A stretch of DNA of 64,000 bases, taken from the IMG/VR virus record IMGVR_UViG_3300025011_000016; one strand, 5' to 3'. The notes beneath the pieces are model-generated. The model was given only the letters and a program-made list of their open reading frames with translations. It was not told the DNA's origin and did not search any database. This DNA comes from a virus (Duplodnaviria > Caudoviricetes). Shown here in pieces: positions 1,528 through 42,200 of the stretch. A program made the position numbers and the translations under genes. How positions within the stretch are numbered: position 1 is the first letter of the stretch; the number at the start of each line of letters is the position of its first letter.

Positions 1528-4500
1528 ATGGCAGTAACACCACCAAAGAAAGTGGTCCCAAATTTATCATTGAAAGAAACATTGCAAGAGAAGGAACAAT
1601 TATATCATGGTAAAGATGATATATTCGGAATGACATTACTTACCAATCCAGGGTATATTAGTGCATCTCGAAACATTATGTTTACTTCTCATTTAAGACA
1701 ATTCGTAAATTTGAATAAACCGGATTTCCCAAAAGTATTAACGAATTATGAAAATCTTGTTGGTAAACATTCAACTGGATATTTCAAACCTAAGAATGAT
1801 TTAATCGTTGTGGATAAGATACCCAAGTTTAATGATATAAATGATGCAAATCATTTATATCTATTATTCTTATATGATAAGAAGACTAATACTTACTCCG
1901 TTATACAGAAAAAGATCGTTGAAGATCTAACAGAGAAGTTTGGTTTTAAATATAAGAATGATCTTATGGATTCTAAATCTATCGGAGATAAAATACAAGG
2001 AGGTAAAACATTATATTCATCCACATCATATGATGAAGATGATAATTATAACTATGGTAGAAATATTAAGTTTATGTATCTACTTGAAAACAATACTATT
2101 GAAGATGCCATAAAGTGCTCTGAATCGTTATCTAAAGAAATGACTTCGACTGAGGTTGAAACTGTAAAGATATCATTCAATGATAATGAAATCATGTGTA
2201 ATCTTTATGGCAACAATGATGAATACAAAGGTTTTCCAGATATTAATGAAAGGGTTAAAGATAAGATCATATGTGCCAAAAGAAGAATTCATAACAATCA
2301 ATTATTATTCGATCTAAAGAAATCAAATCTACGTAAGATTAATTTTATGTCAGATAACTTATTCTTTATTGATGGAAAGATTGTTGATATTACTATCTAT
2401 TCAAATAAACCTATTGGAGAAATTGAAGATAATATCTTTAATCATCAAATGTTAAAATACCTTAAAATGCAAAAAGAATTTTATACTAAAGTTTTAGATA
2501 GGTGTAAAAAGATAATTGCATCTGGAGCTAAATATTCAAATGAAATAAATTTCTATTATAAGAAAGCTAAGAATATATTAGACGATAATTACATGTACAA
2601 GGAAGAAGATAACAGTGTATTTAGTAATATGGTTATTGAATTCCTTGTTGAACGAGAAGTTCCTTTATCAGTAGGACAGAAGATTACTGGTCGTTACGGT
2701 AATATAATTGCTGTATTTTCTTTAATTGTCGGGGATATCCTTATAGCTTAAACTACTATTAGTAACAAGTTTAAGATTGGACAATTCGCAGCCAAGATTG
2801 TTAATAAACAATAAGGTTCAACGACTAGAGTGAAAACTCGTAGATTCGAAAGAATTGAAATGGGAAAACGATAGATTTTAATCTATTGAAGATATAGTCT
2901 AATATCCTAATGGAAGTTAGGGAAGTTCATAAGAGAACTGCATTATATAATAATGTGAATACTTGAATAAAGGTATTATAAGTCAGATCATACCAGATGA
3001 AGAAATGCCATTTCTTGAAACTGGTGAACGTGTCGATTGTATATTCAACTCCCTAAAATTTTGGGGCTTTATGTAGTGATATATAATGAAAACTACTTTA
3101 ATTGCGGGAAAATTCTTATGGCTTTATAATATAAAGATTGGACAATCCGCAGCCAAGATTGTTAGTAAACAATAAGGTTCAACGACTAGAGTGAGAACTC
3201 GTAGATATTAATATCGAAATTGGTAGAATCTTCTATATAGAAGATTATGAGATAGTCTGGTATCCTATATAACTATAGGGAAGTTCATAAGGGAACTGCA
3301 TTAATTAATAATTACTGTGAACACAACGAGGTGTGATAAATCGCTTAACTGAGAAGGTCCGGGCGATGTAAAACCTTTCTAATTGCGGGGACATTTGTTA
3401 ATTTCAATTTACCAAGTTAATATATTAATGGCTTAGTCCAATCAACTAAGGTATGGTAATAAGAATTGAAATTGAGTAATCCGCAGCCAAGATTGTTAAT
3501 AAACAATAAGGTTCAACGACTAGAGTGAAAACTCGTAGGTTTATTTATAAGCCGAAACGGAAGGCTGGTAATACTTAATATTATTAGAAGATATAGTCTA
3601 AAACATTTGTGAACTCATTTCAGTTATATGAGCAGTCAATAAATTTTATATGTAATCGCATAAGAGAAAGAATTGCGATAACAGAAGATATCTCTATAAA
3701 AGAACAAATGGTATTTAGTATTGTGGGTCATTTTAATCCTGAAGAACAAAGAAGACTTAGGATATATTATGATAAGTTATCAGATAATGGTAAGGATCAT
3801 TTCTTCGATGATATAGTCAAGCAAGGTATCTATATACACATTCCTCCACTTTGGGAAGACGTATGTTTATTCGATAAACTAAGAGCAATATATGCTGAAT
3901 TCACATGGATAAAACCATACTCAGTTTATGTGAATAAATTTGGAAGAAAGATCAAAATGATGAAGGATTTAATTGTCGGAGAAATGTATGTTCTTAAATT
4001 AAATCAAACTTCAAAGAAAGGTTTTTCAGCCAGATCCACTGGTTCGTTATCGAAGAGAGGAATTCCTATTTATTTATATGGGACTATATAGAGTAATCTA
4101 TATTGTGAAAACATTTTAATTGACGGGAAACTCCTTAGAACTTCTTAATTGAAGATTGGACAATCCGCAGCCAAGTCTCTTATAATAAGAGAAAGGTTCA
4201 ACGACTAATTTAGAGCTCAAGTGAGTGGATGAGAATCCTTTTAAATCAAAATAAATGTCATCCGTAAAAATAATAAATAACGGATGGTGATATAGTCTTG
4301 TATCCTATATAGTTATAGGGAAGTTCATAAGAGAACTGCATAGATTAACGACCTATGTGAAAGTATCGGAGAAATCAAATAAAGCAAAAACCCATCAAGA
4401 ATTATATCCACATACGCCTCAATTTGTAGGGGCTGTTGTATAGTAATATATAATGAATCTTTCTTAATTGACGGGAACCTTCTTAGAGCCTTATTTACTA

Positions 4501-5552
4501 AACTATAAGTATTATAGTGGCCAGAATAATTAACTGGGTATAGTAATAAAAATAAGGATTGGATAATCCGCAGCCAAGATTCTTATATAAGAATAAGGTT
4601 CAACGACTATCGAAAGCTTTTAATTAAGTTAGTAGAGTAAGCTCACAAGTCAATAATGGTGAGTTAAAACAGAAAGCTCCTAGAAATAGGATAAAGATAT
4701 AGTCTGCTATCTCAAGGAAACTTGAGGAGTTCATAATGGAACTGCATAAATTGACGATTTATGTGAACAAAAAAGGATACGAATTGGAGATTACTTATAT
4801 AGTTTCCCTGCATAGTAATATGCAGTTTAACAACTCTTTTAATTGACGGGAAACTCCTTAGTGCTTTATAATATAAAGATTGGACAATCCGCAGCCAAGC
4901 CTCTTTATGAGAGAAAGGTTCAACGACTAGAGCATTGCTCATAGATTTACAAGTTAATGGTAAGTCGAAATGGAGAGCTCTATTAATAAACTTTATTAAT
5001 AGATGAAGATATAGTCTGCACCTTAAAGAAATTTAAGGACAATCTTTTGAATTGTAATACATGTTACGAATGTATTTAACATATTGGCAGGAAAATATTA
5101 ACAGTATGATAGGTGTCGATCCAGACATCATAGCTAAACTACATTTATTCTATAGGTCTTCAGTTGTTGGAAGAAGAAACTTAGGTGAAACTTTGGCAAC
5201 TAGACTTAAGTTATTAAATGATTTTAAGTATTCTGCGGAATTCAAAAATAGAAATGTTGAAATTTTACAGGCATATTTAAAAGCTATGGGCGTAAAGATT
5301 GTATTTGAAAATGAGAATATGTATATTGAAATCTATACTGATCAGTTAGAAGAATATTCATCTGAGGGTAGGATATATATATGTACTAAACGTGAGTTTG
5401 AAGCCGTTCAGAGAGAAGCAGAAGTTCGCAGAGAGTTCCGTGAGGATAAGTGCTTAGTGGGAACTCATGCTGAAGTTGAAGCTATTATTCAAGCTCGTAT
5501 CAGCGATCTAAACAAACGAGATACTCATTATGTAATTGACATAAATTTATAA
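1528..5552 (+). CDS. rpoB: phage multisubunit RNA polymerase beta subunit, C-terminal half; 7 exons, about 755 aa after splicing (probably the non-virion enzyme)
   Basis: Exons 1528-2700, 2966-3054, 3329-3345, 3610-4067, 4369-4419, 4777-4791, 5088-5552 total 2268 nt, in frame. Joining restores GQKITGRYG|NKG, FNSL|GVINRL|N, SARSTG and TP|IRIGD|QE, matching beta motifs GDKxxGRHGNKG, NPLGVPSRMN, HARSTG and RFGEME. Confidence 0.9.
2701..2965 (+). ncRNA. group I intron, ORF-less (beta-C intron 1)
   Basis: 5' exon TACGGT|, IGS ATTGCTG. Core AATTGTCGGG / ATTCGCAGCCAAG / GTTCAACGACTA / AAGATATAGTCT. Ends ...AATACTTG. Confidence 0.9.
3055..3328 (+). ncRNA. group I intron, ORF-less (beta-C intron 2)
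   Basis: CTCCCT|AAAA pairs with TTTTGGGG (U-G at the splice site). Full P/Q/R/S. Ends ...ACACAACG. Confidence 0.9.
3346..3609 (+). ncRNA. group I intron, ORF-less, apparently lacking P9 (beta-C intron 3)
   Basis: ATCGCT| pairs with IGS GGCGAT. Full P/Q/R/S. Only about 10 nt (AAAACATTTG) separate S from the inferred terminal G. Confidence 0.75.
4068..4368 (+). ncRNA. group I intron, ORF-less (beta-C intron 4)
   Basis: TTCCT|AT pairs with ATGGGA. Full core. Ends ...AAGTATCG. Confidence 0.9.
4420..4776 (+). ncRNA. group I intron, ORF-less (beta-C intron 5)
   Basis: GCCT|C pairs with GGGGC. Full core with a longer P5 extension. Ends ...AAAAAAGG. Confidence 0.85.
4792..5087 (+). ncRNA. group I intron, ORF-less (beta-C intron 6)
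   Basis: GGAGAT|T pairs with AGTTTCC. Full core. The 3' site is G5087 (gives RIGDQE) or, less likely, G5090. Confidence 0.8.
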
Positions 5553-5693: not shown

Positions 5694-6518
5694 ATGATCC
5701 TTAAGAAAAATCTATTACCTATTATTAATACAACTGGAATTGCAAAGGTTATTGTGGTTGCTACTCAAAAAGGTGGATCTGCTAAGACAACATCTACATG
5801 TAATCTAGCTGTTGCTATGGCGGAACGAACAGGTAAACGAGTTGCCATAATTGATTTCGATCCACAAGGTCATGTTAGTACAACTTTTGGATATGATAAG
5901 ACAGCATATAAATCTACAATATATGATGTCCTTATTGGAGATCAACCATTAAGTTCAATCCGAGTAAAAACCAAATATGGAGTAGACATATATCCATCTA
6001 ATAGGGAACTTGCCAATATTGAACATGAAATCATCTTAAACAGAATTATGTTTCCAAGAGACAAGTTTGTGCTTAGAAATGTTATTGATGATATAAAACA
6101 TAGATATGATTATATCTTCATTGATACACCACCGAGTTTAAGTTTGATAACATTAAATGCTCTAGTGGCGGCAGATGAAATTCTTATTCCTGTCCAAATG
6201 GAACCATTGGGTGCTGACGGTCTAGTTGAATTGTTAGAAACTATAAGTTCAATAGTTAGACAATACAATCCCGATATTGTTATCAAAGGGGTTATTGGTA
6301 CTATGCTCGATAGACGAGCTAAGTCTATGGTTACTCAACTTGTCCAGGATATAAATATGTTCTGTGACAAAAATAAGATTCATATCTGTGAGACTTTCGT
6401 TAGGAGAGCGCCACGAATGTCTTATATTGGCGGTATACCTGTTATCTTAGGTGATCGTAAATGTGAAGCCGTTATGGATTATAAAAAAATATTAGAGGAG
6501 CTGTTCTGTTATGAGTAA
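5694..6518 (+). CDS. parA: ParA/Soj-family partitioning ATPase
   Basis: Deviant Walker A (KGGSAKTT), AIIDFDPQG, YIFIDTPP, ALVAADEILIPV. Confidence 0.9.
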   Translation: MILKKNLLPIINTTGIAKVIVVATQKGGSAKTTSTCNLAVAMAERTGKRVAIIDFDPQGHVSTTFGYDKTAYKSTIYDVLIGDQPLSSIRVKTKYGVDIYPSNRELANIEHEIILNRIMFPRDKFVLRNVIDDIKHRYDYIFIDTPPSLSLITLNALVAADEILIPVQMEPLGADGLVELLETISSIVRQYNPDIVIKGVIGTMLDRRAKSMVTQLVQDINMFCDKNKIHICETFVRRAPRMSYIGGIPVILGDRKCEAVMDYKKILEELFCYE

Positions 6519-7092
6519 GAAAGAAAAAATGCAACGTAGTACGTTAACACATTCACTTGAGCCGGTTGAATCACAAGGCTTTGATGACGAAGATTCTATT
6601 AGAAATGAGGAGGAAACTGCAATGAACAAAATTACCGAGGGAGAACAATCTAAACCGGATGGGAATATTGAAAATTTAATCGGGAGTATCAACAAAGAAG
6701 AAATCACTAGTGATAGTCAAATAAATGAAGTTTCAGGCACTACGGATGATAATGATCAACGTGTCCGTGTTCAATTACCCGAAAACGCGCTATATGATCA
6801 CAATGCAAAACAAGTGGTTGCCTTTGATTGTAGAGTTGGCGTTATATTGAATGGTGTGGAATTCAATCCAGAACAAATTGTTCAGAGAATATGGGATAGT
6901 ATCGAACGAAAAAGACTTGAGGGAATTAACGAGCCGCCCCGTATCATTCAATGGAAAAATAAACGTGAAGTCGAAAAGCCTAAACTAATAATTATTCCGG
7001 ACGTTCCTAAACAGGTATCAAAACCTGTAGTTACTCATAAGCCGGGTGCAGCTATATCAGCAATTGGAAGACAATTCGGAATGATGATTTAG
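6511..7092 (+). CDS. hypothetical protein translationally coupled to ParA
   Basis: 8-nt overlap with the parA stop. Acidic low-complexity N-half. No ParB motif recognised. Confidence 0.75.
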   Translation: MSKKEKMQRSTLTHSLEPVESQGFDDEDSIRNEEETAMNKITEGEQSKPDGNIENLIGSINKEEITSDSQINEVSGTTDDNDQRVRVQLPENALYDHNAKQVVAFDCRVGVILNGVEFNPEQIVQRIWDSIERKRLEGINEPPRIIQWKNKREVEKPKLIIIPDVPKQVSKPVVTHKPGAAISAIGRQFGMMI

Positions 7093-7100
7093 CAAATTAA

Positions 7101-7130
7101 TAGGAGGATTTTACAGATCCTTCTTTTTTT
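7101..7130 (+). terminator. intrinsic terminator after the parA operon
   Basis: GGAGGAT...ATCCTTC followed by a T tract. Confidence 0.7.
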
Positions 7131-7186
7131 TCTCTTAATATCAAATTTAAATATATATTATATAGTTGGATTAAAAAATATATGGG

Positions 7187-10100
7187 GTGAAAGATATGGA
7201 TAAGCAAAATATAATATCACAATTAAGTGATATTCATCAAAGGTTATTAGAAAAAGAAGATTTTGTTGATACTATACAGAGACTAGAATTAATGAAGATC
7301 AATAGACTTATCAATTATCTTTTATATGCAATTACTGAATATGATCCAGATGACAAATTAATACTTCAATTATTAATAAGGATATTGCAAAATATCTTTA
7401 ATAATAGTAGTGAAATATCTCCTGTGACCGATGAGGATTATGATAAATTATATGAGTTAAACAGACAATTTAATAATGAAGAAATTGTTGGATCGTCTTT
7501 TAATAAATCCAATAAGATAATTTCAAGTCATAAATATCCTGATTTGAGAGGAACTCTAGATAAGGTCCATTTCATTAGAATTAAAGATAAGGGTAAAGAC
7601 AAACGAAGATCTATAGAAGATTTTATTAATACTGTAGAAAATAAAATAGGCAGATCTTTAACTAAGGATGAATCATTCGCCTATCTATTTCCTAAATGGG
7701 ATGGTATATCATGTATATTCGAATGTGATGAAAATGGTAATACCGATAAGGCATTATCTAGAGGTGATACTGATATAAATGAAGCGGTCGACTGGACTAA
7801 ATTGTTTAAAGGATCTAATTTCAAGTATGTGTTCGGTAATGATATAAATAGATTATTTGGTTTAAAAACAGAGATTGTAATGAGTCGTTCAAATTATAAA
7901 TTAATATGTGAAAAAGAAGGAGATCTTAAAAGTCCAAGGAGTGCCGTATCGTCTATATTAACTTCATTAACTGGTGACACATCGAATTTACCATATCTAA
8001 CTATAATACCTTTACAGACTCAGGAGTTTGAAACTAAATCTATATATACTCCAACTATAGTATATGATGAGTTTCCATACAGTGGAGGATATTTAAACAA
8101 TTTAGATGAGATCGAATTAAGAATGTTGGAGTTAAGAGAACGTATTTATACTGAAATGGATATAGATACAGATGGTGTGGTTTTTCGTTTAGCTGATCCA
8201 TATATACAAAAACTATTGGGTCGGGAAGATAAGATAAATAAATATGAGTTTGCATATAAATTCCCTCCAGAACAAAAGAAAACTATAATTAAAAATGTTA
8301 ATTTCTCAGTTGGTCTTTTAGGTTCAGTGCGACCAGTAGCAGTAATAAAACCTGTTACAATAAAAGGTAATACTATAACCAATATATCATTGGGTTCTAT
8401 AGATAGATTTGAAGAATTGGATTTAAGATTAGGTGATGAAGTTATAATAAAATATGATGTTATACCATACCTATCAATAGATTCAACATGTAGAAAAGGA
8501 GATGGGACTAAGTTTACAACTCCAACAAAATGTATATATTGTAAGGAAGAATTAGTTAAAGATCCCATATTGAAATGTATTAACGAAAAATGTAATTGTC
8601 GAATTATAGGTAAGATTCTAAACTATACTAGTAAGATGAGTATTTCAAATATGGATGTTGGAACAGTAACCACTTTATTTGAAAATAAGTTATTACGATC
8701 TATTGGTGATCTATATAAACTCAAAGATCATAAATCTGATATAGTTTCATTAAGTGGTTTTGGTGAAAAATCCTTTAATAATATTATTAAAGGTATTGAT
8801 TCAAGACGAGATGTTTATGATTATGAGTTATTGGGTTCATTGGGTATTACAGATATAGGTAGGAAAATGTTTAAGCGAATTTTAAATATATATTATATTG
8901 ATGAACTTATAGATTCAAGTACATGAGTCTCATTGCATAGTGATATGTAATAGTAATTACTTTAATTGCGGGGATCTCCTTAGAACTTAAAACACTCTAA
9001 AGTAATAATGTTTAAGATTGGACAATCCGCAGCCAAGATTCTTAATAAAGAATAAGGTTCAACGACTATCCCAGTGGATGTGAAATTCATCATTAGGAGT
9101 AGGGCTCAAGTGAGTTGGGTGAAATCCCATTAAATCGAAATGAGTAACCCCATTATAAACCATTATAATGGGTGAAGATATAGTCTGTGCTTTAAGGAAA
9201 CTTAAAGATATAACTTAATCGTAAGTCCTAAAAATTTCATTTATATATTATTACTATGATACTAACAAATAATATAAGAAAGGAGGTGAATTAAATTGAT
9301 TAAAACTTTTAAAACAAGAATACGACCGACGAAAGAACAAGAAGTATATTTAAACAAATGCTTTGGATACAGAAGGTTTATATATAATAATGCTTTAGAA
9401 TACTTTAATACGATCTTAGAATTCAATGGTAATAATCTGGATAAAACATTAAAGAAGTTCTTTAATAAGTTTGATTATATCACTAATATATATTCTAAGA
9501 AAGAAAAAGAACCTGAACTGGAATGGACTAGGGAATATAATAAAAACATAAAGGATCAGGTATCTAGTGATTTTAATATAGCTGTTAATAGATTCTTTAA
9601 CGATATTAAAAATAAGAAGCGATGTAAACTTCATTTTAAAAGAAAGATCCATGGAAATGGGTCTTTTAGAATATACAATAAAAATAAAGGTAATGTTAAA
9701 ATTCTTGATAAAAACATATTCTCTTTTATTATTAATAGAGAATATGGTCATATGTCATTAAAAACATATGAAGATATAAGCTTTTTATATCATCATGATA
9801 TAAAAACTATGTCTATTCGTATGAAGAATTTTAAATATTATGTTTCATTCACCTATGAATTGGACATTCCAAAGCATGATCATGAGAAAGACATCATAGG
9901 TATAGACTTAGGGATACATAATCCAGTAGTTTGTTTTGATGGAAAAGATGTCATAGCTCCTAAATTTCCGAAAGGAATTATTAAGAGACTAGAGAAGAAA
10001 GTCGATAAGTTTTCAACGATAGTTTCTAAGAAGAAATATGATAAACGTAATCCATCAAAGAACTATATAAAAGCGAGAACCAAGCTTAATGATATTTATA

Positions 10101-10952
10101 TTAAAATAACAAATATCAGAATGGATTATATCCAGAAGGTATCTACATTTTTAGCTAAAACTTATAAAAACGTTATAGTTGATGAATTTAGTTTTAAGGA
10201 TGTATTAACAGAGTCTGATGGTATTGAGCGTATAAATAGAGGTATACACAGAGTTGGTGCCTTTACATTTACCACAGTGTTAAAATATAAATGCCACTTT
10301 TATGGTAGTGAATATATTTTAGCATTACCTAACAGTACGAACACATGCTCTGTTTGTAATCATAAAGTTAAAACTAAAATGAAGTTATCTCAAAGAGTCT
10401 TTAATTGCCCACAATGTGGACATATAGATGATAGAGATAACAATGCGGCTATTAATATCTATAATACATTTAAACGATCTTTATTAACTAACGTAAATAA
10501 AGATTTCGCCGTTGGTCGGACGGTTCAAAGAACCTAAACGGTTAAGTTATTATGGTATCTAACGAATACCATTAACACGACAGTTATGCCTAAAGAATAA
10601 GATGGGAGGGCTGTTATTAATCCGTGGGATTAAAGAAATAACAGCCGTTAAAATTATTGAGGGCATAAAGTCGAATAAAAAACTTATTGATTTATTACGA
10701 TCCGAGATTAATTTAAGGAGGGATGTAAGACGATATACAATTAAAGTATGTTTTACTAAAGTTAGAGATAAAGATTTTGAGAAATTTCTTGAAAGTAAGA
10801 ATGTATTGGTTCTTGAAAAATATAATAAGGAGGTTGATGTGTTAATCATACCTTATAAAGATATTGATTCAGTCAAAGTTACTACTGCGAAGAAAGATGG
10901 TAAGGATATCGTAACCATCGATGAAGCTTATAAGATGTTTGGTTATAAGTAG
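7187..10952 (+). CDS. ligA: NAD-dependent DNA ligase, 2 exons (about 698 aa)
   Basis: KWDG adenylation motif, SRGD, DGVV, AYKFPP, a Cys4 zinc finger and HhH repeats in exon 1 (7187-8914). Exon 2 (10584-10952) continues ELID|LCLKNK... into a BRCT-like C-terminus. Confidence 0.92.
9242..9251 (+). promoter_or_regulatory. early-type promoter motif inside the ligA intron, upstream of tnpB
   Basis: TATATATTAT lies downstream of the ribozyme core, 45 nt before the tnpB start. Confidence 0.55.
9296..10537 (+). CDS. tnpB: TnpB RNA-guided nuclease (IS200/IS605/IS1341-type)
   Basis: N-terminal HTH (RIRPTKEQ...CFGYRRFIYN), RuvC-I GIDLG, RuvC-II VDE, CxxC-CxxC zinc finger, RuvC-III DRDNNAAINI. AAGGAGGT RBS with TTG start. 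Confidence 0.93.
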   Translation: MIKTFKTRIRPTKEQEVYLNKCFGYRRFIYNNALEYFNTILEFNGNNLDKTLKKFFNKFDYITNIYSKKEKEPELEWTREYNKNIKDQVSSDFNIAVNRFFNDIKNKKRCKLHFKRKIHGNGSFRIYNKNKGNVKILDKNIFSFIINREYGHMSLKTYEDISFLYHHDIKTMSIRMKNFKYYVSFTYELDIPKHDHEKDIIGIDLGIHNPVVCFDGKDVIAPKFPKGIIKRLEKKVDKFSTIVSKKKYDKRNPSKNYIKARTKLNDIYIKITNIRMDYIQKVSTFLAKTYKNVIVDEFSFKDVLTESDGIERINRGIHRVGAFTFTTVLKYKCHFYGSEYILALPNSTNTCSVCNHKVKTKMKLSQRVFNCPQCGHIDDRDNNAAINIYNTFKRSLLTNVNKDFAVGRTVQRT

Positions 10953-11027
10953 CATTAATAAGAAATTATTTGCTACCTAACATATTAGTAAGGAAAAAAT
11001 AAAAAGAAGAAATGGGAGGGTTTAAAC

Positions 11028-11393
11028 ATGTCTAATTCAAACGAACAAGACAATTCACGCCTAATCGAAATCCGGGAAAACGTAAAGGAAATCAGCAAAA
11101 TTGCGGATCGGGCCGCCAAGTACCTTGATGAGGAAAACCGTATTACGATTACTCACTCACTGGCGATTCCGACGATCGTGTACGCATTCATGCGAGAAGC
11201 GATCAACTTCCTTACTGAAAATAAGGTGGTTGGTTCAGATATTGAAATTAATTTAATGCAGCTTTTGGATCTTGGTATTTCATACCGCGAAAACGACGAA
11301 GCCGAGAAAGAGGGTAATTTTACTCCTTATGCTCGACCGGGACAGGAATTTAAACTCCTCGTTAAGAGCGATGAAGATACTGAAGAGGCCTAA
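11028..11393 (+). CDS. hypothetical protein, possibly distantly HU/IHF-like
   Basis: GGGAGG RBS, own promoter motif and terminator, GC-richer codon usage. C-terminal YARPGQEFKLLVK resembles HU FKPGKELK. Confidence 0.7.
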   Translation: MSNSNEQDNSRLIEIRENVKEISKIADRAAKYLDEENRITITHSLAIPTIVYAFMREAINFLTENKVVGSDIEINLMQLLDLGISYRENDEAEKEGNFTPYARPGQEFKLLVKSDEDTEEA

Positions 11394-11403
11394 AACTGGC
11401 AAC

Positions 11404-11444
11404 GACATAGACAATGAGTTATTAACTAACTCATTGTCTATGTC
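11404..11444 (+). terminator. long perfect inverted repeat / terminator
   Basis: GACATAGACAATGAGTTA / TAACTCATTGTCTATGTC. Confidence 0.65.
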
Positions 11445-11525
11445 AATTTAATGATACAATTTTTTTATTAATTAAGAGATGTTTTGTAATAGTTTAAACA
11501 TTATAGAGAGTTGGGGGAGTAATTC

Positions 11526-14500
11526 TTGAAGGACTTCATAAAGGATTATAACAACACCAATGAAGAAAATATCAATTTTGATCTAATGACACGATCACAT
11601 GATGCTGATTTAACAGAGTATGTTGTTAATACCTGTAAATCATTAGAAGTTCTTAAATATATTAAATTCATTGGTTATGAATATATAACTGATGAAACGA
11701 AAATAGATATTAATTACTATATGAGTACGAGGAAGAAAAGTAAGAAGAAAAATGAAACAAAGTATATGTACCTGCAAGATAGTCGATATGGTGAAATGCA
11801 TTTAAAGTTTCATTTAAAATGTAAAGATCGATCATTAACTTTTATCAAGAAGATATTATTACCAGTGGCTGATGATAATGATTATTATTTAGTTAAAGGT
11901 AAAAGACATTCATTATTATATCAACTAGTTGATAGTTCAACTTATACAACTAGACAGAATTTAACATTAAAATCATTAAGACCTATTACGATGAAACGAA
12001 CTGAAAGAATATATTCAGATACAGATGGTACTAAACATTCAGCTCCTTCATATGCAATTTATATCTTCAAGAAAGAAGTAGATATATTATTATTCTATTT
12101 TGCAAAGATAGGTGTGTCAAGAACTTTAGAATATTTTTCAGTAAATCATATAATGAAGTTTAAATCAGAAATTGAAGATACTATCAATAATATATATTTC
12201 TCAATTAATAGTAAATTACATGTAGAGATCAATAGACATTTCTTTGATAAATATCCATATGTTAAGAGTATAGTATTTATGATATTGAATATTTGCACTA
12301 ATAGATTAACTGTTGAAGATCTAGAAAATAAATCTTTCTGGATTGAAAAGATAGGCTCTATGAATGCGACTAATGCATATAACTATCTAGAAAAAGGTAC
12401 TAATACTTTAGTATTCTTTGATAGGTTATTAGATGAAACAACTAAGAATATTTTAAAAATTCATGATGAGAATAATAAAAATATATACTCTGTAATTCGT
12501 TGGATTAAATTATAGTCCCATTATAGAGTGATCTATATTGAAAACTTCTTTAATTGTCGGGAAACTCCTTAGTGCTTTATAAAGATAAAGATTGGACAAT
12601 CCGCAGCCAAGATTCTTATAATAGGAATAAGGTTCAACGACTAATTTAGAGCTCAAGTGAGTGAGTTTAATATAACTCTTAAATCGAAATAAGAAGCATC
12701 TTATATAAGATGATGATATAGTCTGTGCTTTATTGAAAGATAAAGAAAGATAACATCTTTACATTATCTAACGAATAATGTTAACACTCAGGTTTCAAAA
12801 CTTTAATGAATTACGTAAGAAAGATAATCTTGATCTTGCCAATAAACGTTTACGATGTAATGAACTCATCGCATCATTATTAACTAAAGCTTTTAGTACT
12901 AGAGTTGATAGAATTATTGGTTTTGGTAATAAAGTTACGTTAGATAACATTAAGGAAATATTCAAATTTCCAGGTGATGTAATAATGCAGCAATTGCATA
13001 AGTCAGGATTATTTAGATATGATATTTTATTGTCCATTATAGTAGTGATATTATAATGAATTTTCTTTAATTGGCGGGGACATTCTTAGGGCTTAAACTA
13101 CTAAAATATATCAGTGATGATATACTAACTAAGAGTAACTAACTTAGTATGAGTAATAATGTTTAAGATTGGACAATCCGCAGCTAAGCATCTTTATATA
13201 AACCCCCATAATTATTAATACGTTATACAATATAAAGGAGAGGTGTGACTGTAATGAAAGGACGATTGGGTGAAAATAAATGTCCCTCTTGTTACGAATA
13301 ATTATTCAATTAATTCTGAGGGATTTATTAGGAATGATAAATTCAATAGAATTTTGACCCGATGGAAAAATAATAGAGGTTATGAAGCTGTGCAATTATC
13401 ATGTATTGATGGTATAACAAGAAGTTTTACAATTCATAGATTGATGGCTCATCATTTTATACCAGGGTTCGACATTTCAGATAGATCCATTGTTGTTCAT
13501 CATAAGGACAGTGTAAATAAAACTAACTCATTAGATCTTCTAACCGTTTGTACTCAAAAAGAAAATATTAAGTATTCTATCGAAGAAGGTAATAAACCAA
13601 ATGGTGAAAAACATCCGATGGGTAAATTTCCAGATGAGCTGGCTAATAAAATAGTTGCCTTATTACAAAAAGAAAAAAGTACCGATGAAATATTTAATAT
13701 ATTAGATTTAGAAGTTAAGAAGAATATGCGTATATTTATAAATGATCTTAGAGCTAAACGAACCCGATTGTATTTAACTGAAGGTTTGGATTTAAAGAAG
13801 CATGTGCAGGAAAAACATGATATAAACTTGGTGAAGAGGGTGATTCGTTATATGAAGATAGGTATGACGGTAGATAATATAATCAATATGATTGGAAAAG
13901 GAAATGCTGGTAGGCATGAAAGGGAGAGATACTCCTCGTTAATACAAAGGATACATGACGGGAAAGCGTGGGGAAGATTATATAAAGATGATAGTTCAAC
14001 GACTAATGATGACTACATGGTTATTAAAATTAAAATGTAGTTATAGATTTACAAGCTAATGGTAAATCGAAATGGGGAACACCTCATATTAAGTTGATAT
14101 GAGATGAAGATATAGTCTGGTATCCTAATATTAAATTAGGGAAGTTCATAAGAGAACTGGGTTTCGTTGCGGAAAACCTGAACCTGGGGATAAAATTAAC
14201 GATCTCGACTTCTTTAGTAAGTTCAAATATACCCTAAATTTTGGGGCGTTATAGAGTGATCTATATAGATAAAATTCTTTAATTGTCGGGGAACTCCTTA
14301 GAACTTCTTAATTGAAGATTGGACAATCCGCAGCCAAGATTGTTGATAAACAATAAGGTTCAACGACTAGAGTATAACTCGTAGATATATAAGTTAATGA
14401 TATATCGAAATAAGTTTAATCTTCTTATAGAAGATTGTGATATAGTCTTGTATCCTATATAACATTAGGGAAGTTCATTTGAGAACTGTATAGAGTTACG

Positions 14501-15746
14501 ATCTATATGAAAGTATACGTAAAGGACCAAATTCCTTGGGTTTTAATAAATAGGCCCATGATCTTTTAATTGCGGGAAACTCCTTAGTACTTCTATATGA
14601 AGATTGGACAATCCGCAGCCAAAATTGTTGATAAACAATAAGGTTCAACGACTAGAGTATAACTCGTAGATATATAAGTTAATGATATATCGAAATATAG
14701 AACTATCGAAAGATAAAGAGATAGTCTGGTATCCTAATTAACATTAGGGAAGTTCACAGGAGAACTGCATTATTTTACGAATAATGTGAACTCATCGAAT
14801 AAAAATGATAATAATATCTCAGTTAAATATCGCGGCATACACCCGAGTTATCTGGCCCGCGTAGATATTAACGTTTGCGGTGAACGTAGAAATATAATTG
14901 CCGCCTTTTCTTTAATTGACGGGAACTCCCTTATAGCTTAAACTACTAATAGTAACAAGTTTAAGATTGGACAATCCGCAGCCAAGATTGTTATAAAACA
15001 ATAAGGTTCAACGACTAGAGTGATAACTCGTAGATTCGAAAGAATTGAAATGGGAAAACGATAGAGTTATTCTATTGAAGATATAGTCTAATATCCTAAT
15101 ATAAGTTAGGGAAGTTCATAAGAGAACTGCATAGATTGATAAACTGTGTGAATAAATGAATTCAGACCCTAGAAATAAATTTGGGGCAATATCGAGTGAT
15201 CGTTATTGTTAAACTACCTTGACTGCGGGAAACTTCTTAGAGCTTTAAATTGATAAAGATTGAACAATCCGCACCCGATATTCTATATAATAGAATAAAG
15301 TTCAACGACTAGAGCATATTTGCTCGTAGATATAAAGTTATATCGAAATTAGTAGAATCTCTTAGGAGATTATGAGATAGTCTGGTATCCTATATAACTA
15401 TAGGGAAGTTCATAAGAGAACTGTACTATTTAACGAATAGTATGAACACACGGGAACTAGTGGTATTATAACACCATTCTGTAAAACTAGTGGATTATTC
15501 TTCGATGGTGCATTTGAACCAGAAAGTTTTAAATATGATTTTGATAAGGAGATAACTGACTTTAGAAAATCAACTAGTAATAACATAATTGTTGATACTC
15601 ACTATGATAATATATCTGAGTATTTTGAAGGTAGAGAACGATTTAAAGAAATGAATAGTCGAATCAAAATATCAGAGATTGAACGAACTGATAATAGTAA
15701 GTATTATATTAAAATTAAGCTTGCTAGTAATACTGATGATATATAA
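11526..15746 (+). CDS. rpoB: phage multisubunit RNA polymerase beta subunit, N-terminal half; 7 exons, about 556 aa after splicing
   Basis: Exons 11526-12505, 12792-13023, 14189-14235, 14520-14541, 14798-14881, 15159-15170, 15453-15746 total 1671 nt, in frame. YYLVKGKRHSLLYQL corresponds to FIINGxERVxVSQL. Joining gives KYTL|KGPNSLG and RGIHPSYLARVDINVCG|NSDP|GTSG (beta GPGG and [23 protein letters not shown]). Confidence 0.88.
12506..12791 (+). ncRNA. group I intron, ORF-less (beta-N intron 1); closest 'empty' relative of the two TnpB introns
   Basis: GGAT|TA pairs with TAGTCC. Full core. The 3' domain GTCTGTGCTTTA...CTAACGA...TAACACTCAG parallels that of the TnpB introns. Confidence 0.9.
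13024..14188 (+). mobile_element. group I intron carrying an HNH endonuclease in P6 (beta-N intron 2)
   Basis: TGAT|A pairs with TTGTC. Q at ~13176 and R at ~13994 are separated by the ORF, with arms CATCTTTATA / TATAAAGATG. Ends ...AACCTGGG. Confidence 0.85.
13270..14040 (+). CDS. intron-encoded HNH homing endonuclease
   Basis: GYEAVQL, IHRLMAHHF, VHHKD..NK.N..L, QKEN. Its last codons overlap the intron R element. Confidence 0.8.
   Translation: MKINVPLVTNNYSINSEGFIRNDKFNRILTRWKNNRGYEAVQLSCIDGITRSFTIHRLMAHHFIPGFDISDRSIVVHHKDSVNKTNSLDLLTVCTQKENIKYSIEEGNKPNGEKHPMGKFPDELANKIVALLQKEKSTDEIFNILDLEVKKNMRIFINDLRAKRTRLYLTEGLDLKKHVQEKHDINLVKRVIRYMKIGMTVDNIINMIGKGNAGRHERERYSSLIQRIHDGKAWGRLYKDDSSTTNDDYMVIKIKM
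14236..14519 (+). ncRNA. group I intron, ORF-less (beta-N intron 3)
   Basis: CCCT|AAA pairs with TTTGGGG. Full core. Ends ...AGTATACG. Confidence 0.9.
14542..14797 (+). ncRNA. group I intron, ORF-less (beta-N intron 4)
   Basis: GGGT|TT pairs with AGGCCC. Full core. Ends ...CTCATCG. Confidence 0.88.
14882..15158 (+). ncRNA. group I intron, ORF-less (beta-N intron 5)
   Basis: GCGGT|GA pairs with TTGCCGC. Full core. Ends ...AATAAATG. Confidence 0.9.
15171..15452 (+). ncRNA. group I intron, ORF-less (beta-N intron 6)
   Basis: CCCT|AG pairs with TTGGGG. Variant core ACTGCGGG / ATCCGCACCCG / GTTCAACGACTA / GAGATAGTCT. Ends ...ACACACG. Confidence 0.88.
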
Positions 15747-39295: not shown

Positions 39296-42200
39296 TTATG
39301 AATTGAGTTCATCGAAGAAATCCAATGGTATACCTGTTTCTGATGACATATCATCATCAAAATTTTCAACATAATTTTTTGGTGGAATTAACATATCACT
39401 ATGCTTCATTTCCCTACGAGCTTTTTGGATTTCTTCAATTAATTTTATATTATAATCGTCTTGAGTTTTAACACCAACATCTTTAAAATATCCCTTGCTA
39501 TCATCCGAGAGTTCTTCATATAGTTCATCATATGTTAACCCTTTATTACGTTTTTCTTCGTCGGGTATATCTCCCCTGACAAAACCGAATCTATGAAGAT
39601 TATTTCCATGATAGAATACATATAGAACTATTAGATATGACATTATTGAATCGTCATGAAAAGAAGTCCCTGCAGCTATTTTACCAGTTTTAGTTTTAAC
39701 TAGTCGTAATAGATCATCAATAATATTACAGGTAACAAATTTATCTTTAAATTCATTCACATGTCGTTCAAGTAAACTCCTGTCGTGTTAGTAGTATTCG
39801 TTAGATACCACGATAACTTAACCGTTTAGGTTCTTTGAACCGTCCGACCAACGGCGAAATCTTTATTTACGTTAGTTAATAAAGATAGTTTAAATGTATT
39901 ATAAATATTAATAGCCGCATTGTTATCTCTATCATCTATATGTCCACATTGTGGGCAATTAAAGACTCTTTGAGATAACTTCATTTTAGTTTTAACTTTA
40001 TGATTACAAACAGAGCATGTAATGGTACTATTCGGTTCTGCTAAAATATATTCACTACCATAAAAACGACATTTATATTTTAACACCTGCGTAAACGTAA
40101 AGGCTCCAACTCTATGAATACCCCTATTAATACGCTTAATACCATCAGACTCTGTTAATAAATCTTTAAAACTAAATTCATCAACTACTACGTTTCTATA
40201 GGTCTTGGCTAAGAATGTAGATACCTTCTGAATATAATCCATTCTAATATTCACTATTTTGGCGTGAATATCATTAAGCTTGGTTCTCGCTTTTATATAG
40301 TTCTTTGATGGATTACGTTTATCATATTTCTTCTTAGAAACTATTTCCGAAAGCTTATCAGTTTTCTTCTCTAGTTTCTTAATCTTCCCTTTCGGAAATT
40401 TAGGATTTATGATATCTTTTCCATCAAAACAAACTACTGGATTATGTATCCCTAGGTCTATACCTATAGTATTTTTCTCATGGTTATGACTTGGATTATC
40501 TATTTCATATGTGAATGATACATAATATTTAAAATTCTCCATACTAATACTCATTGTTTTCATCTCATGATGATATAAGAAGCTTATATCTTCATATGTT
40601 TTTAATTCCATATGCCCATATTCTCTATTAATAATAAAAGAGAATTTATTTTTATCGAGAATCTTAACAGCAGCTTGCTTAATATATATTCTAAAAGAAC
40701 CATTTCCATGAATCTTTCTTTTGAAATGTAGTTTACATCGCTGCTTATTTTTAATATCTTTAAAGAACTTATTAACGGCTAAGTTAACATCACTAACCGT
40801 TTCATTTTTTATAGACTTATTATATTCTCCAGTCCATTCAAATCCAGGTTCCTTTTCTTTCTTAGAATATATATGAGTAATAAAATCAAATTTATCAAAG
40901 AACTTCCTTAAATCTTTATCTACAATATTACCATTAAATTCTAGGATCTTATTAAAATACTCTAAAGTATTATTATATACAAATCGTCTATAACCAAAGC
41001 ATTTGTTTAAATATGTTACTTGTTCTTTAGTTGGTCGTATTCTTGTTTTAAAAGTCTTAATCAATTTTTATTCACCTCCTTTCTTATATTATTTGTTAAA
41101 GGTATAATATAATTGTATTAGGAATGAATTAGTAAGACTTACGGTTAAGTTATTCTCTAAGTTTCCTTAAAGCACAGACTATATCTTCACCCATTATAAT
41201 AATAATTATAATGGGGCCACCCATTTCGATTTAAGGGATTCTCACCCACTCACTTGAGCCCTACTCCTTTACGGATAGTCGTTGAACCTAAATCTATAAA
41301 TAGATCATTGGCTGCAGATTGTCCAATCTTAAACATTGTTACTTTGTTGTAGTTTAAGCACTAAGGAGTTTCCCGCAATTAAAGTAGTTTCAATTACATA
41401 TTACTATGCAACGTGACTCATACATGAATCATAACTTCTCTGGACTTATCTCCGGTCCAAACACCATATAGTTTTCGTCTAGCTGATTCTAATTTTAACA
41501 TACCTTCTGAGTCAAGTTTATCATCAAGTCCGGATGAAACAAGATCTTTATCATTATCAAAGTATAAATTAGAGCGTATATCTGTTAATTTTAAAGAATC
41601 CATTATGGCTTCACCATTAAAATTACGTTCTATACATAATATAGACTTAGGGATATGATGTTTGATAAGAGTAGTTATAAATTTAATAGTCTGAACTACA
41701 CCTATATATGGTGATTTAAATTCAGCAACAGGTTTTATAGTATATGGGTCAAATACCGTAACGGCAGTATTATCTTTACCATAACCATTAGAGGTATCAA
41801 CTCCAACGAAGTATATCCTATCTTTCTTCAAGGGTTCATATATATCTAATTTAAATAGTTTATTTATAAATATTTCTTCCTTAATTGGCTTCTTCATTTC
41901 TTCAATAGTGGCCAAATCTTCTGCGGGGAAAGGAGATTCGGATGAACCCCTCATTCTTTGAAGGAAGACCTCTCTTTTAATCTTTACTGGATTATTCAGT
42001 AAGATCTGACAGATACTTTTAAACCATATTTCATCTTTACCAAGTTGTTGATATTGGTATTCAATATAGACGATTCCACTTTCAGAATTAATTGCAATAT
42101 ATTCATCTAAATCTTCTTTAGTCCAATCATAAAACTTTTCAGTCCAACGACAAGTTGTAGCGATAATCTTTAATGCGTCCTGACCTGCTGAAGTATCTAA

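What the first reader, a model, noticed from the sequence alone, without database searches (positions are those of the whole stretch)
8915..10583. TnpB-armed group I intron in a jumbo-phage DNA ligase: candidate RNA-guided homing intron
Seen: a complete group I intron (IGS GAGTCT pairs exon AGAT|) carries a full-length tnpB with all three RuvC acidic motifs and a zinc finger, and no tnpA. The intron ends at ...AACACGACAG, and excision restores the LigA frame (ELID|LCLKNK). Established: TnpB uses an omegaRNA scaffold from the element's right end plus the flanking sequence as guide, and cuts the empty site next to a TAM. Intron-IS fusions (IStrons) are known from Firmicute chromosomes, with TTGAT target sites for IS605-type ones. 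Inference: the guide would be the start of exon 2 (TTATGCCTAAAGAATAAG...) and the TAM the end of exon 1 (..TAGAT). TnpB would then cut exactly the intron-less ligA allele of a co-infecting relative, replacing a protein homing endonuclease with a reprogrammable RNA-guided one. I do not know of this being described in a lytic jumbo phage, but I cannot search.
Basis: partly seen in the sequence, partly recalled or inferred. Interest (0 to 1): 0.93.

Follow-up and report, generated by a model that had tools for sequence, protein, structure and literature searches.

The report
TnpB-carrying IStron in phage ligase
[quoted passage not shown] It belongs to the already described IStron class and is one of at least five related copies in that genome; whether its nuclease drives intron homing is untested.

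Summary
It holds a complete group I ribozyme (8915-9207; Rfam 80 bits), an intact tnpB (9296-10537) and a conserved ~108-nt 3' domain ending at the 3' splice site.

- **Splicing:** it gives a 698-aa LigA that aligns without gaps with intron-less ligases of related 200-270 kb contigs.
- **Other copies:** one in terL (39780-41427, minus), one in a helicase, a 591-nt tnpB-less mini copy, and a further right end (L023). All have the same ends.
- **Insertion sites:** every site whose left flank was seen ends in GAT (TTGAT, ATGAT, TAGAT, AGGAT), and the intron's guide sequence co-varies with it.
- **TnpB:** it keeps the RuvC triad and zinc finger; dN/dS is 0.13-0.28.
- **3' domain:** the last 20 codons have no synonymous change, and the domain survives in the mini copy.

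This is a TnpA-less, IS200/IS605-type (group A-like) IStron. That class is known, has been found in phages, and has experimentally shown TnpB-guide activity in one member. Homing by TnpA-less IStrons is already a published but untested hypothesis. Nothing here tests cleavage, and no near-identical intron-less ligase allele was found.

This scan has noted phage IStrons before on other DNA (78 notes, at least 22 genomes). Verdict: real, a new member of a known kind, of moderate interest.

The parts
7187..8914 (+). ligA exon 1 (NAD-dependent DNA ligase, adenylation and OB domains)
   Evidence: Pfam DNA_ligase_aden and DNA_ligase_OB. Colinear with intron-less homologues.
8910..8914 (+). TAGAT, the last 5 nt of exon 1. 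This is the TAM-equivalent position, and T8914 forms the U.G pair of P1.
   Evidence: Read. Sister copies have TTGAT, ATGAT and AGGAT at the same position.
8915..10583 (+). Whole IStron (1,669 nt): group I intron, tnpB and right end
   Evidence: Copy-to-copy homology starts and stops exactly here. Excision restores the LigA frame.
8915..9207 (+). Group I ribozyme core, P1 to P9. The internal guide sequence TGAGTCT lies at 8924-8930.
   Evidence: Rfam RF00028, 80.3 bits, model positions 1-253. The guide sequence co-varies with the exon among copies (GTCT for AGAT/GGAT, GTCA for TGAT).
9210..9222 (+). 5' arm of the long-range inverted repeat that encloses the tnpB module
   Evidence: 13-nt complement of 10538-10550 (one G.U in this copy, perfect in the terL copy) at the same relative position in both copies.
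9242..9251 (+). TATATATTAT, a promoter-like phage motif 45 nt upstream of tnpB (candidate internal promoter)
   Evidence: 15 copies in the window against 3.5 expected; 0 of 100 shuffles reach 15. By my comparison with ORF starts, 11 lie 20-80 nt upstream of a same-strand ORF start. Its function is inferred.
9296..10537 (+). tnpB (413 aa, TTG start, SD AGGAGGTG at 9281-9288)
   Evidence: Pfam. Aligned with ISDra2 TnpB with an intact D204/E297/D381 triad and zinc finger. dN/dS 0.13-0.28 between copies.
10476..10583 (+). Conserved 3' domain, a probable omegaRNA scaffold. It holds SL1 (10477-10504), SL2, SL3 (10552-10572) and the tail TAACACGACAG; the terminal G at 10583 is the omega-G.
   Evidence: 0/20 third-codon-position differences in all six copy pairs, against 5-7/22 just upstream in the five divergent pairs (1/22 for A/B). 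The tnpB-less mini copy keeps it (1-6 of 62 and 2-5 of 46 differences) while the adjacent former coding DNA has 23-26 of 63. Predicted stem-loops show one compensatory pair and G.U changes.
10538..10550 (+). 3' arm of the inverted repeat. It overlaps the predicted scaffold helices.
10584..10603 (+). Start of exon 2 (TTATGCCTAAAGAATAAGAT), the predicted guide/target segment. Its first 5 nt can form P10 with CATGA at 8922-8926.
   Evidence: The position follows from IStron/TnpB logic. This flank is unrelated between copies. P10 is read. Guide use is inferred.
10584..10952 (+). ligA exon 2 (HhH and C-terminal region)
   Evidence: In frame with exon 1 and colinear with intron-less LigA to the C-terminus.
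39780..41427 (-). Sister IStron copy in the terminase large-subunit gene (tnpB 39826-41064, 85% aa identity)
   Evidence: The Rfam gathering hit is 41155-41437. Splicing gives one open terL reading frame.

Best explanation
The element is a TnpA-less IStron of the IS200/IS605 (group A-like) type, in the ligase gene of an AR9/PBS1-like jumbo phage.

**What each part does**
- Shown by sequence: the 5' group I ribozyme can remove the whole 1,669 nt from the ligA transcript, so the insertion need not harm the essential gene.
- Inferred: a 13-bp long-range helix loops out tnpB and brings the distant 3' splice site back to the ribozyme core.
- Inferred: TnpB is translated from its own ribosome-binding site.
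- Inferred: the last ~108 nt of the element is the omegaRNA scaffold. On unspliced transcripts, or on transcripts from a candidate internal promoter, the scaffold runs on into exon 2 and so acquires a ~16-20 nt guide.

**Proposed action**
- The TnpB-omegaRNA complex would cut a ligA allele lacking the element, in which TAGAT directly abuts TTATGCC....
- The occupied allele is protected because ...GACAG stands where the TAM would be.
- In a cell co-infected with an intron-less relative, repair from the intron-bearing genome would copy the element in, which is intron homing. The same cut would restore the element after any excision.

**Spread to other genes**
Spread to new genes (helicase, RNAP leader, ligA, terL and others) needs a second mechanism. 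The likely candidates are a Y1 TnpA supplied in trans or reverse splicing at xGAT sites.
For: **Identity**
- Ribozyme match, TnpB domains and catalytic residues.
- Ends defined by five or more copies.
- The frame is restored and colinear with intron-less LigA.

**IStron features as defined in the literature**
- The splice sites coincide with the element ends.
- The exon ends in U, with the U.G pair flanked by base pairs.
- Sites are TTGAT-like. The helicase copy has exactly TTGAT.
- An inverted repeat encloses the ORF.
- It is multicopy and sits in unrelated genes.

**Signs of a working unit**
- dN/dS is 0.13-0.28 at dS 0.11-0.68 (0.26-0.68 without the A/B 3' segment).
- The triad and zinc finger are kept in all four full copies.
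- There are no synonymous changes in the last 20 codons in any pair. The same ~108 nt is kept in the tnpB-less mini copy while neighbouring former coding DNA decayed.
- Changes inside predicted helices are compensatory or G.U.
- Right flanks are unrelated between copies, as expected for guides.
- A promoter-like motif lies upstream of tnpB.

**Precedent**
- CboIStron TnpB-omegaRNA cleaves TAM plus target and promotes retention.
- Homing by TnpA-less IStrons has been proposed.
Against: - No experiment and no RNA data bear on splicing, omegaRNA ends or cleavage.
- The ligA site has TAGAT, not the canonical TTGAT. Only GAT is invariant among copies, and that could be imposed by the ribozyme's guide sequence (GTC) rather than by TnpB.
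- No omegaRNA family is matched in Rfam, and a nexus pseudoknot could not be established.
- The conserved 3' domain could partly serve 3' splice-site selection, since its 3' part forms the long-range helix.
- The only intron-less ligA allele found belongs to a 70%-identical relative and would mismatch both TAM and guide. No present-day homing substrate is therefore seen.
- Homing cannot explain five different insertion sites. No TnpA was found among the 60 longest non-overlapping ORFs of at least 95 aa in the window; the rest of the genome could not be searched.
Confidence: 0.6

Rival explanations
1. It is a transposon first. The element moves by a Y1 TnpA supplied in trans, from the host or from elsewhere in the phage. 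[quoted passage not shown] Homing between co-infecting phages would be negligible.
For: - At least five different insertion sites end in a TTGAT-like motif.
- An RE-type hairpin lies 11 nt from the end.
- The published function of TnpB is retention after TnpA excision.
- C. difficile IStrons likewise lack full TnpA.
Against: - No TnpA among the window's ORFs.
- No left-end hairpin resembling the right-end hairpin was seen (own reading).
- Without excision there is no empty site in the same genome to cut. Yet TnpB is under purifying selection in every copy.
Confidence: 0.2
2. It is an ordinary group I intron with a passenger ORF. The conserved 3' ~108 nt is a peripheral ribozyme domain (P9.x) needed to find the distant 3' splice site. 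TnpB would do something other than cutting the empty site, for example act as an RNA chaperone, as a regulator, or as a nuclease aimed at another target.
For: - The 3' arm of the long-range helix lies in the conserved domain.
- The domain is retained in the mini copy, which only needs to splice.
- No Rfam omegaRNA match.
Against: - SL1 and SL2 lie inside the looped-out segment, not next to the splice site. They are still kept almost unchanged in the mini copy.
- The RuvC triad and zinc finger are intact in all copies.
- The other introns listed in the window end within about 40 nt of the Rfam model's last position and have no such domain, and the right end was found only in the two tnpB-bearing copies.
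Confidence: 0.15
3. It is a decaying relic: an immobile insertion tolerated only because it splices, with tnpB drifting towards a pseudogene.
For: - One sister copy (helicase, L002) has a frameshift that removes the last ~17 residues.
- A tnpB-less mini copy exists.
Against: - dN/dS is 0.13-0.28 over dS 0.11-0.68 (0.26-0.68 without the A/B 3' segment).
- The ORF is full length with all catalytic residues here and in the terL copy.
Confidence: 0.05

Closest known systems
Group A (IS200/IS605-type) IStrons: CdISt1 and the CdiIStrons of Clostridioides difficile (Tourasse 2014, PMC4227781; Zedaveinyte 2023, doi 10.1101/2023.11.20.567912)
   Same: - Group I ribozyme at the 5' end, tnpB downstream, and element ends that coincide with the splice sites.
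- The exon ends in T, with the U.G pair flanked by base pairs.
- TTGAT-like left flank and no target duplication.
- A short, mixed-composition inverted repeat encloses the ORF.
- The guide-RNA region spans the 3' splice site.
- Multicopy in unrelated genes, and TnpA missing.
   Different: - It lies in an uncultured jumbo phage rather than a Firmicute or Fusobacterium chromosome.
- The 3' end is ACAG rather than TCAG.
- The left flank is relaxed to NNGAT (TAGAT here).
- The inverted repeat is 13 bp rather than 6-10 bp.
- There is no tnpA fragment to anchor the IS family.
- TnpB relatedness to CdISt1 ORF B was not measured.
Group B (IS607-type) IStrons: CboIStron, and CbISt3/CbISt4 of C. botulinum phages c-st and D-1873
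   Same: - Phage-borne IStrons exist.
- For CboIStron, TnpB-omegaRNA cleavage of TAM plus target, retention, and the conflict between splicing and guide RNA were shown by experiment.
   Different: - Group B inserts after GG (TGGG) and ends in CGG.
- Its exon ends in G.
- It has long AU-rich inverted repeats.
- It carries a serine TnpA.

None of these applies here.
IS200/IS605 TnpB-omegaRNA (ISDra2 and relatives)
   Same: - Same domain set, and an alignable RuvC triad and zinc finger.
- The scaffold overlaps the 3' end of tnpB and the right end.
- TTGAT-class flank.
   Different: - Here the left end is a ribozyme, and the right end doubles as a 3' splice site.
- Identity to any relative outside this element family is at most 38%; it was not measured against ISDra2.
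Phage group I introns carrying protein homing endonucleases (T4 td/I-TevI type; marker exclusion between co-infecting phages, reviewed in PMC13565253)
   Same: - A self-splicing intron in an essential phage gene.
- The proposed spread is by cutting the intron-less allele of a co-infecting relative.
   Different: - The nuclease would be RNA-guided, so its target is set by the flank and not by protein-DNA contacts.
- Its activity is not shown.
TnpB-only IS elements in lytic phages (for example ISCaje3 of Campylobacter phage CP220; free-standing tnpB of Staphylococcus jumbo phages)
   Same: A tnpB without tnpA in a large virulent-type phage genome.
   Different: The loci checked have no Rfam group I match (E up to 0.01) beside tnpB.

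Membership tests
IStron (group A, IS200/IS605 type) | Group I ribozyme forms the 5' part of the element | tested here: met
   RF00028 full-length match at 8905-9207, 80.3 bits.
IStron (group A, IS200/IS605 type) | IS-derived ORF B (tnpB) lies inside the intron, downstream of the ribozyme | tested here: met
   Three TnpB Pfam domains above their cut-offs.
IStron (group A, IS200/IS605 type) | Element ends coincide with the splice sites, and removal regenerates the host ORF | tested here: met
   The homology limits of the copies fall at 8915 and 10583. Spliced LigA is colinear with intron-less homologues.
IStron (group A, IS200/IS605 type) | [quoted passage not shown] | tested here: inconclusive
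   The ligA site is TAGAT. Sister sites are TTGAT, ATGAT and AGGAT, so only GAT is invariant. The U.G pair flanked by base pairs is met.
IStron (group A, IS200/IS605 type) | 3' terminus TCAG | tested here: not met
   All copies end in ACAG; only CAG is shared. This is a consensus from 16 elements, not a mechanistic requirement.
IStron (group A, IS200/IS605 type) | Short inverted repeat of mixed composition encloses the ORF region | tested here: met
   9210-9222 pairs with 10538-10550, 13 bp, conserved in the terL copy. This is longer than the published 6-10 bp.
IStron (group A, IS200/IS605 type) | ORF A (Y1 TnpA), or a remnant of it, assigns the IS family | tested here: not met
   There is no room in the element (88 nt and 46 nt of non-coding DNA). 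No Y1 or serine recombinase family appeared among the 25 of 31 matched Pfam families shown for the 60 ORFs scanned.
IStron (group A, IS200/IS605 type) | Multicopy, in unrelated genes | tested here: met
   ligA, terL, a helicase and an RNAP-gene leader, plus one or two further right flanks (L023, and L001 if it is not an assembly chimera).
IStron (group A, IS200/IS605 type) | Self-splicing demonstrated | not testable with these tools
   No listed RNA run is shown to hold the stretch.
TnpB-omegaRNA (OMEGA) nuclease | RuvC D-E-D triad and zinc finger | tested here: met
   D204/E297/D381 align with ISDra2 D191/E278/D361. CSVC and CPQC are conserved in four copies.
TnpB-omegaRNA (OMEGA) nuclease | Structured guide-RNA scaffold overlaps the 3' end of tnpB and the right end, with consecutive stem-loops and a nexus pseudoknot | tested here: inconclusive
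   There is strong non-coding constraint on 10476-10583 and 3-4 predicted stem-loops with one compensatory pair. No pseudoknot was established and there is no Rfam family match.
TnpB-omegaRNA (OMEGA) nuclease | TAM- and guide-dependent DNA cleavage | not testable with these tools
   This needs a plasmid-interference or in vitro assay.
Homing intron | Presence/absence polymorphism at the same site among close relatives, and cleavage of the empty allele | tested here: inconclusive
   Every listed contig with this ligase exon carries the element; the 576-aa exon-1 product recurs on 11 contigs. The nearest intron-less allele is only 70% identical, with TAGAC and 3 of 16 guide mismatches.

The most novel reading that the evidence does not exclude
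A whole family of TnpA-less IStrons in a jumbo phage works as RNA-guided homing introns. An internal phage promoter makes ribozyme-less tnpB-omegaRNA transcripts, which separates guide production from splicing. TnpB then cuts intron-less alleles of co-infecting relatives at several essential genes at once (helicase, ligase, terminase). tnpB-less mini copies are served in trans. The element would thus act both as a gene drive and as a weapon between competing phages.
Probability: 0.35. Interest if true: 0.7.

Novelty: new member of a known kind. Interest (0 to 1): 0.5.

Why it matters
IStrons and TnpB-guided retention are established. The idea that TnpA-less IStrons spread as RNA-guided homing introns is published but still awaits a test (PMC13565253).

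Co-infecting phage genomes are the natural setting for homing. This family offers several things that would make the idea testable with cloned parts:
- several full copies with different guides;
- a trans-dependent mini copy;
- a defined ~108-nt scaffold;
- co-varying intron guide sequences.

It also shows that the group A-like architecture occurs in jumbo phages, inside essential replication and packaging genes. Gene callers there truncate the host proteins; LigA, for example, is called as 576 aa. Because the phage is uncultured, tests would have to be heterologous.

Tried and rejected
- **Reference data:** no whole genome is held for the window, and contig records could not be searched as genomes. 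Megablast of 7000-11500 against 50,697 phage records found nothing.
- **IMG/VR:** scans with TnpB, LigA and a right-end pattern found nothing.
- **Pattern scans:** a 30-nt right-end pattern found nothing in metagenome contigs. A 21-nt core pattern found one further right end, L023, and nothing in species genomes.
- **RNA data:** no RNA holder was listed.
- **Logan contigs:** contigs of four groundwater DNA runs from one study were laid on 8000-11500. No contig joined 8914 to 10584, but contigs drop rare variants, so this says nothing about absence. One 'goes back 1584' joint (10584 to 9001, side 31) is most likely a repeat or k-mer artefact and was not pursued.
- **Rfam:** no family other than RF00028 matched 8700-10800 at E up to 1.
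- **Other phage tnpB loci:** those checked (Machias, LY01, CP220, P0075-type and P0008-type contigs) gave no group I match. Very small cores could be missed. L010 (TnpB 38% identical) does show the end of a ribozyme core upstream and CACGACA near its 3' end, but its contig is too short to use.
- **Scaffold pseudoknot:** candidate pairings of 3-4 bp were seen by eye only and are not claimed.
- **Left-end hairpin:** I looked for one resembling the right-end hairpin, as a Y1 TnpA would need, and found no similarity.
- **L001:** helicase exon 1 is followed by an unrelated right flank and by a tnpB 11% different from L002, despite an identical ribozyme. This may be an assembly chimera across repeat copies, so it was not counted as an independent site on the left side.
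Full report
**1. What is there**

The window is AT-rich phage DNA of about 30% GC. The region 7187-10952 reads as ligA exon 1, a 1,669-nt insert, then ligA exon 2.

- The insert begins with a complete group I ribozyme. Searched alone, 8905-9207 matches RF00028 over all 253 model positions (80.3 bits, E 2.7e-20).
- P1 is formed by AGAT|TCA (8911-8917) and TGAGTCT (8924-8930), with the U.G pair at T8914.
- The Rfam model's last G falls at 9207, but that cannot be the splice site. Joining there gives a stop after one codon, and no P10 is possible.
- At the distal site (10583|10584), TTATG of exon 2 can pair with CATGA (8922-8926).
- After an 88-nt spacer comes a 413-aa ORF with a strong Shine-Dalgarno sequence. 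It carries the three TnpB Pfam domains.
- The ORF aligns with ISDra2 TnpB across residues 3-389. The RuvC triad (D204, E297, D381) and both CxxC motifs are in place.
- There is no room for a tnpA.
- Joining 8914 to 10584 yields a 698-aa LigA. It aligns gap-free at the junction with ten intron-less ligases of 689-703 aa from contigs of up to about 245 kb.

**2. It is a repeated element with exact ends**

| Copy | Location | Host gene | Left flank | Notes |
|---|---|---|---|---|
| A | window 8915-10583 (+) | ligA | TAGAT | this finding |
| B | window 39780-41427 (-) | terminase large subunit | ATGAT | TnpB 85% identical; splicing gives one open terL frame |
| D | L002 | RecD/Pif1-type helicase | TTGAT | on the same 44-kb contig that also carries the ligase copy; exon 2 restores the helicase C-terminal motifs |
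| E | L020:1654-2244 | between SD and ATG of the next gene | AGGAT | 591 nt, 7.6 kb upstream of the window; lacks tnpB but keeps ribozyme and right end |
| F | L023 | not identified | not seen | right end only, with another flank |

- Similarity between copies A and B starts at the first intron base and stops at ...TAACACGACAG.
- All four left flanks seen end in GAT.
- The intron's internal guide sequence co-varies with the flank. It is GTCA opposite TGAT and GTCT opposite AGAT or GGAT.
- The right flanks are unrelated to one another.

**3. Evidence that the parts are under selection**

- Between the full copies, dN/dS is 0.13-0.28 at dS 0.11-0.68 (0.26-0.68 without the A/B 3' segment). TnpB has therefore been kept as a protein since the copies diverged.
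- The last 20 codons show 0/20 third-position differences in all six pairs. The preceding 22 codons show 5-7/22 in the five divergent pairs.
- The mini copy no longer has any coding constraint. In it, the 66 nt upstream of 10476 differ at 23-26 of 63 aligned positions. The segments 10476-10537 and 10538-10583 differ at only 1-6 of 62 and 2-5 of 46.
- Together these define a ~108-nt functional non-coding element that ends at the splice site.
- RNAalifold predicts consecutive stem-loops in it: SL1 at 10477-10504, a GC-rich SL2, a short helix, and SL3 at 10552-10572, followed by an 11-nt tail.
- The few substitutions inside helices are one A-U to G-C swap and several changes to G.U. That fits RNA pairing, but it is thin covariation support.
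- A 13-nt inverted repeat (9210-9222 with 10538-10550) encloses the tnpB module in both window copies.
- That repeat corresponds to the 'IR enclosing the ORF region' described for IStrons. Its 3' arm overlaps the predicted scaffold helices.
- Folding for splicing and folding as a guide RNA would therefore exclude each other. This is the conflict described for CboIStron.

**4. What it is**

These are the defining features of IStrons, specifically the IS200/IS605-type group A:
- ribozyme first and tnpB second;
- splice sites equal to the element ends;
- an exon ending in U, with the U.G pair flanked by base pairs;
- a TTGAT-like flank;
- a short inverted repeat of mixed composition;
- multiple copies in unrelated genes.

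Three features deviate. The end is ACAG rather than TCAG, the flank is relaxed, and there is no tnpA remnant. TnpB-only IStrons are normal: none of the eight C. difficile copies has a full TnpA.

**5. The host phage**

- Its contigs reach 248-272 kb.
- The terminase N-terminal exon is closest to Bacillus phages BpSp and Goe21 (44%) and to Staphylococcus jumbo phages.
- A tubulin-family gene lies just upstream of the window.
- 'Jumbo phage' is therefore supported. 'Lytic' is not established.

**6. How it most likely works**

Shown by sequence: the ribozyme, the frame-restoring ends, an intact and selected TnpB, and a selected 3' RNA-size domain.

Inferred from established IStron and TnpB biology:
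- Unspliced RNA provides a scaffold plus an exon-2 guide.
- TnpB cuts DNA in which the flank motif abuts the exon-2 sequence, which is the empty allele.
- The occupied allele is safe because GACAG replaces the motif.
- Recombination repair then copies the element in.

One further inference concerns transcription. The motif TATATATTAT occurs 15 times in the window against 3.5 expected. Eleven of these lie 20-80 nt upstream of a same-strand ORF start, and one sits 45 nt upstream of tnpB. Transcripts starting there would lack the ribozyme and could not splice. That would give guide-bearing RNA without loss of ligase mRNA.

**7. What argues for caution**

- Nothing here tests cleavage.
- GAT may be dictated by the ribozyme rather than by TnpB.
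- TAGAT departs from TTGAT.
- The nearest intron-less ligase allele (L003, 70% aa) has TAGAC and 3 mismatches in 16 nt, so no present homing substrate is visible.
- Five different sites require transposition or reverse splicing. No transposase was found among the 60 longest non-overlapping ORFs of the window, and the rest of the genome could not be searched.

**8. Novelty**

Already published:
- IStrons, TnpB-only IStrons and IStrons in C. botulinum phages.
- TnpB-omegaRNA activity in an IStron.
- The hypothesis that TnpA-less IStrons spread by intron homing, stated in a 2026 review as awaiting validation.

I found no paper describing IStrons in jumbo phages. This scan's own earlier notes report phage IStrons on other DNA (78 notes in at least 22 genomes) and note the sister copies in this genome.

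I checked the claims about the same genome that I could reach:
- terL copy: confirmed.
- Helicase copy: confirmed on L002.
- Mini copy: confirmed on L020.
- Guide-sequence co-variation: confirmed.
- Long-range helix: found independently.
- Truncated copy: its right flank matches L023.

The finding is real and well defined, but it is a new member of a known kind.

Noticed in passing
window 2665-5038, 12496-12745, 14225-15111, 27184-28216, 32358-32641, 57030-57880: 17 further group I introns pass Rfam's gathering score in 64 kb, besides the two tnpB-bearing copies. Many are back to back with exons of only tens of bases. Most share the same continuation, AAGTTCATAAGAGA, just after the Rfam model's end, so their true 3' ends lie further on.
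   Followed up: partly
window 39780-41427 (-): A sister IStron lies in the terminase large-subunit gene. Its tnpB is 85% identical, it sits after ATGAT, its guide sequence is GTCA, and splicing gives one open terL frame.
   Followed up: yes
L020:1654-2244 (7.6 kb upstream of the window start): A 591-nt tnpB-less mini-IStron lies between a Shine-Dalgarno sequence (AAAGGAGGAT|) and the ATG of the next gene. Only splicing brings the ribosome-binding site to a normal distance from the start codon.
   Followed up: partly
window 42404-42982 (-) and one other ORF: Two HNH_3/NUMOD4 endonuclease ORFs are present, one of them between terL exons. Protein homing endonucleases therefore coexist with the TnpB elements in this genome.
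   Followed up: no
window, 15 sites (for example 1438, 5609, 7152, 9242, 15822, 16615, 18833, 24910, 58720, 59474, 62642): TATATATTAT is over-represented about fourfold and mostly lies 20-80 nt upstream of same-strand ORF starts. It is probably a phage promoter element.
   Followed up: partly
L020:5467-6603: A tubulin-family (PhuZ/TubZ-like) gene lies just upstream of the window. A ParA-like ATPase is at window 5694-6518.
   Followed up: no
L001 versus L002: The two helicase-site copies have 100% identical ribozyme and right end, but their tnpB genes are 11% different and their right flanks differ. This points to recombination between copies or to an assembly chimera across the repeat.
   Followed up: partly
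L003:1760-3850: The nearest intron-less ligA allele has GAC instead of GAT for the Asp codon at the insertion point, in a genome that is about 70% A+T. A single case cannot show whether this is a resistant site.
   Followed up: no
window 8000-11500 laid with runs X1-X4: Several tnpB variant contigs, each at about the phage's own depth, suggest more copies per genome than the window shows.
   Followed up: no
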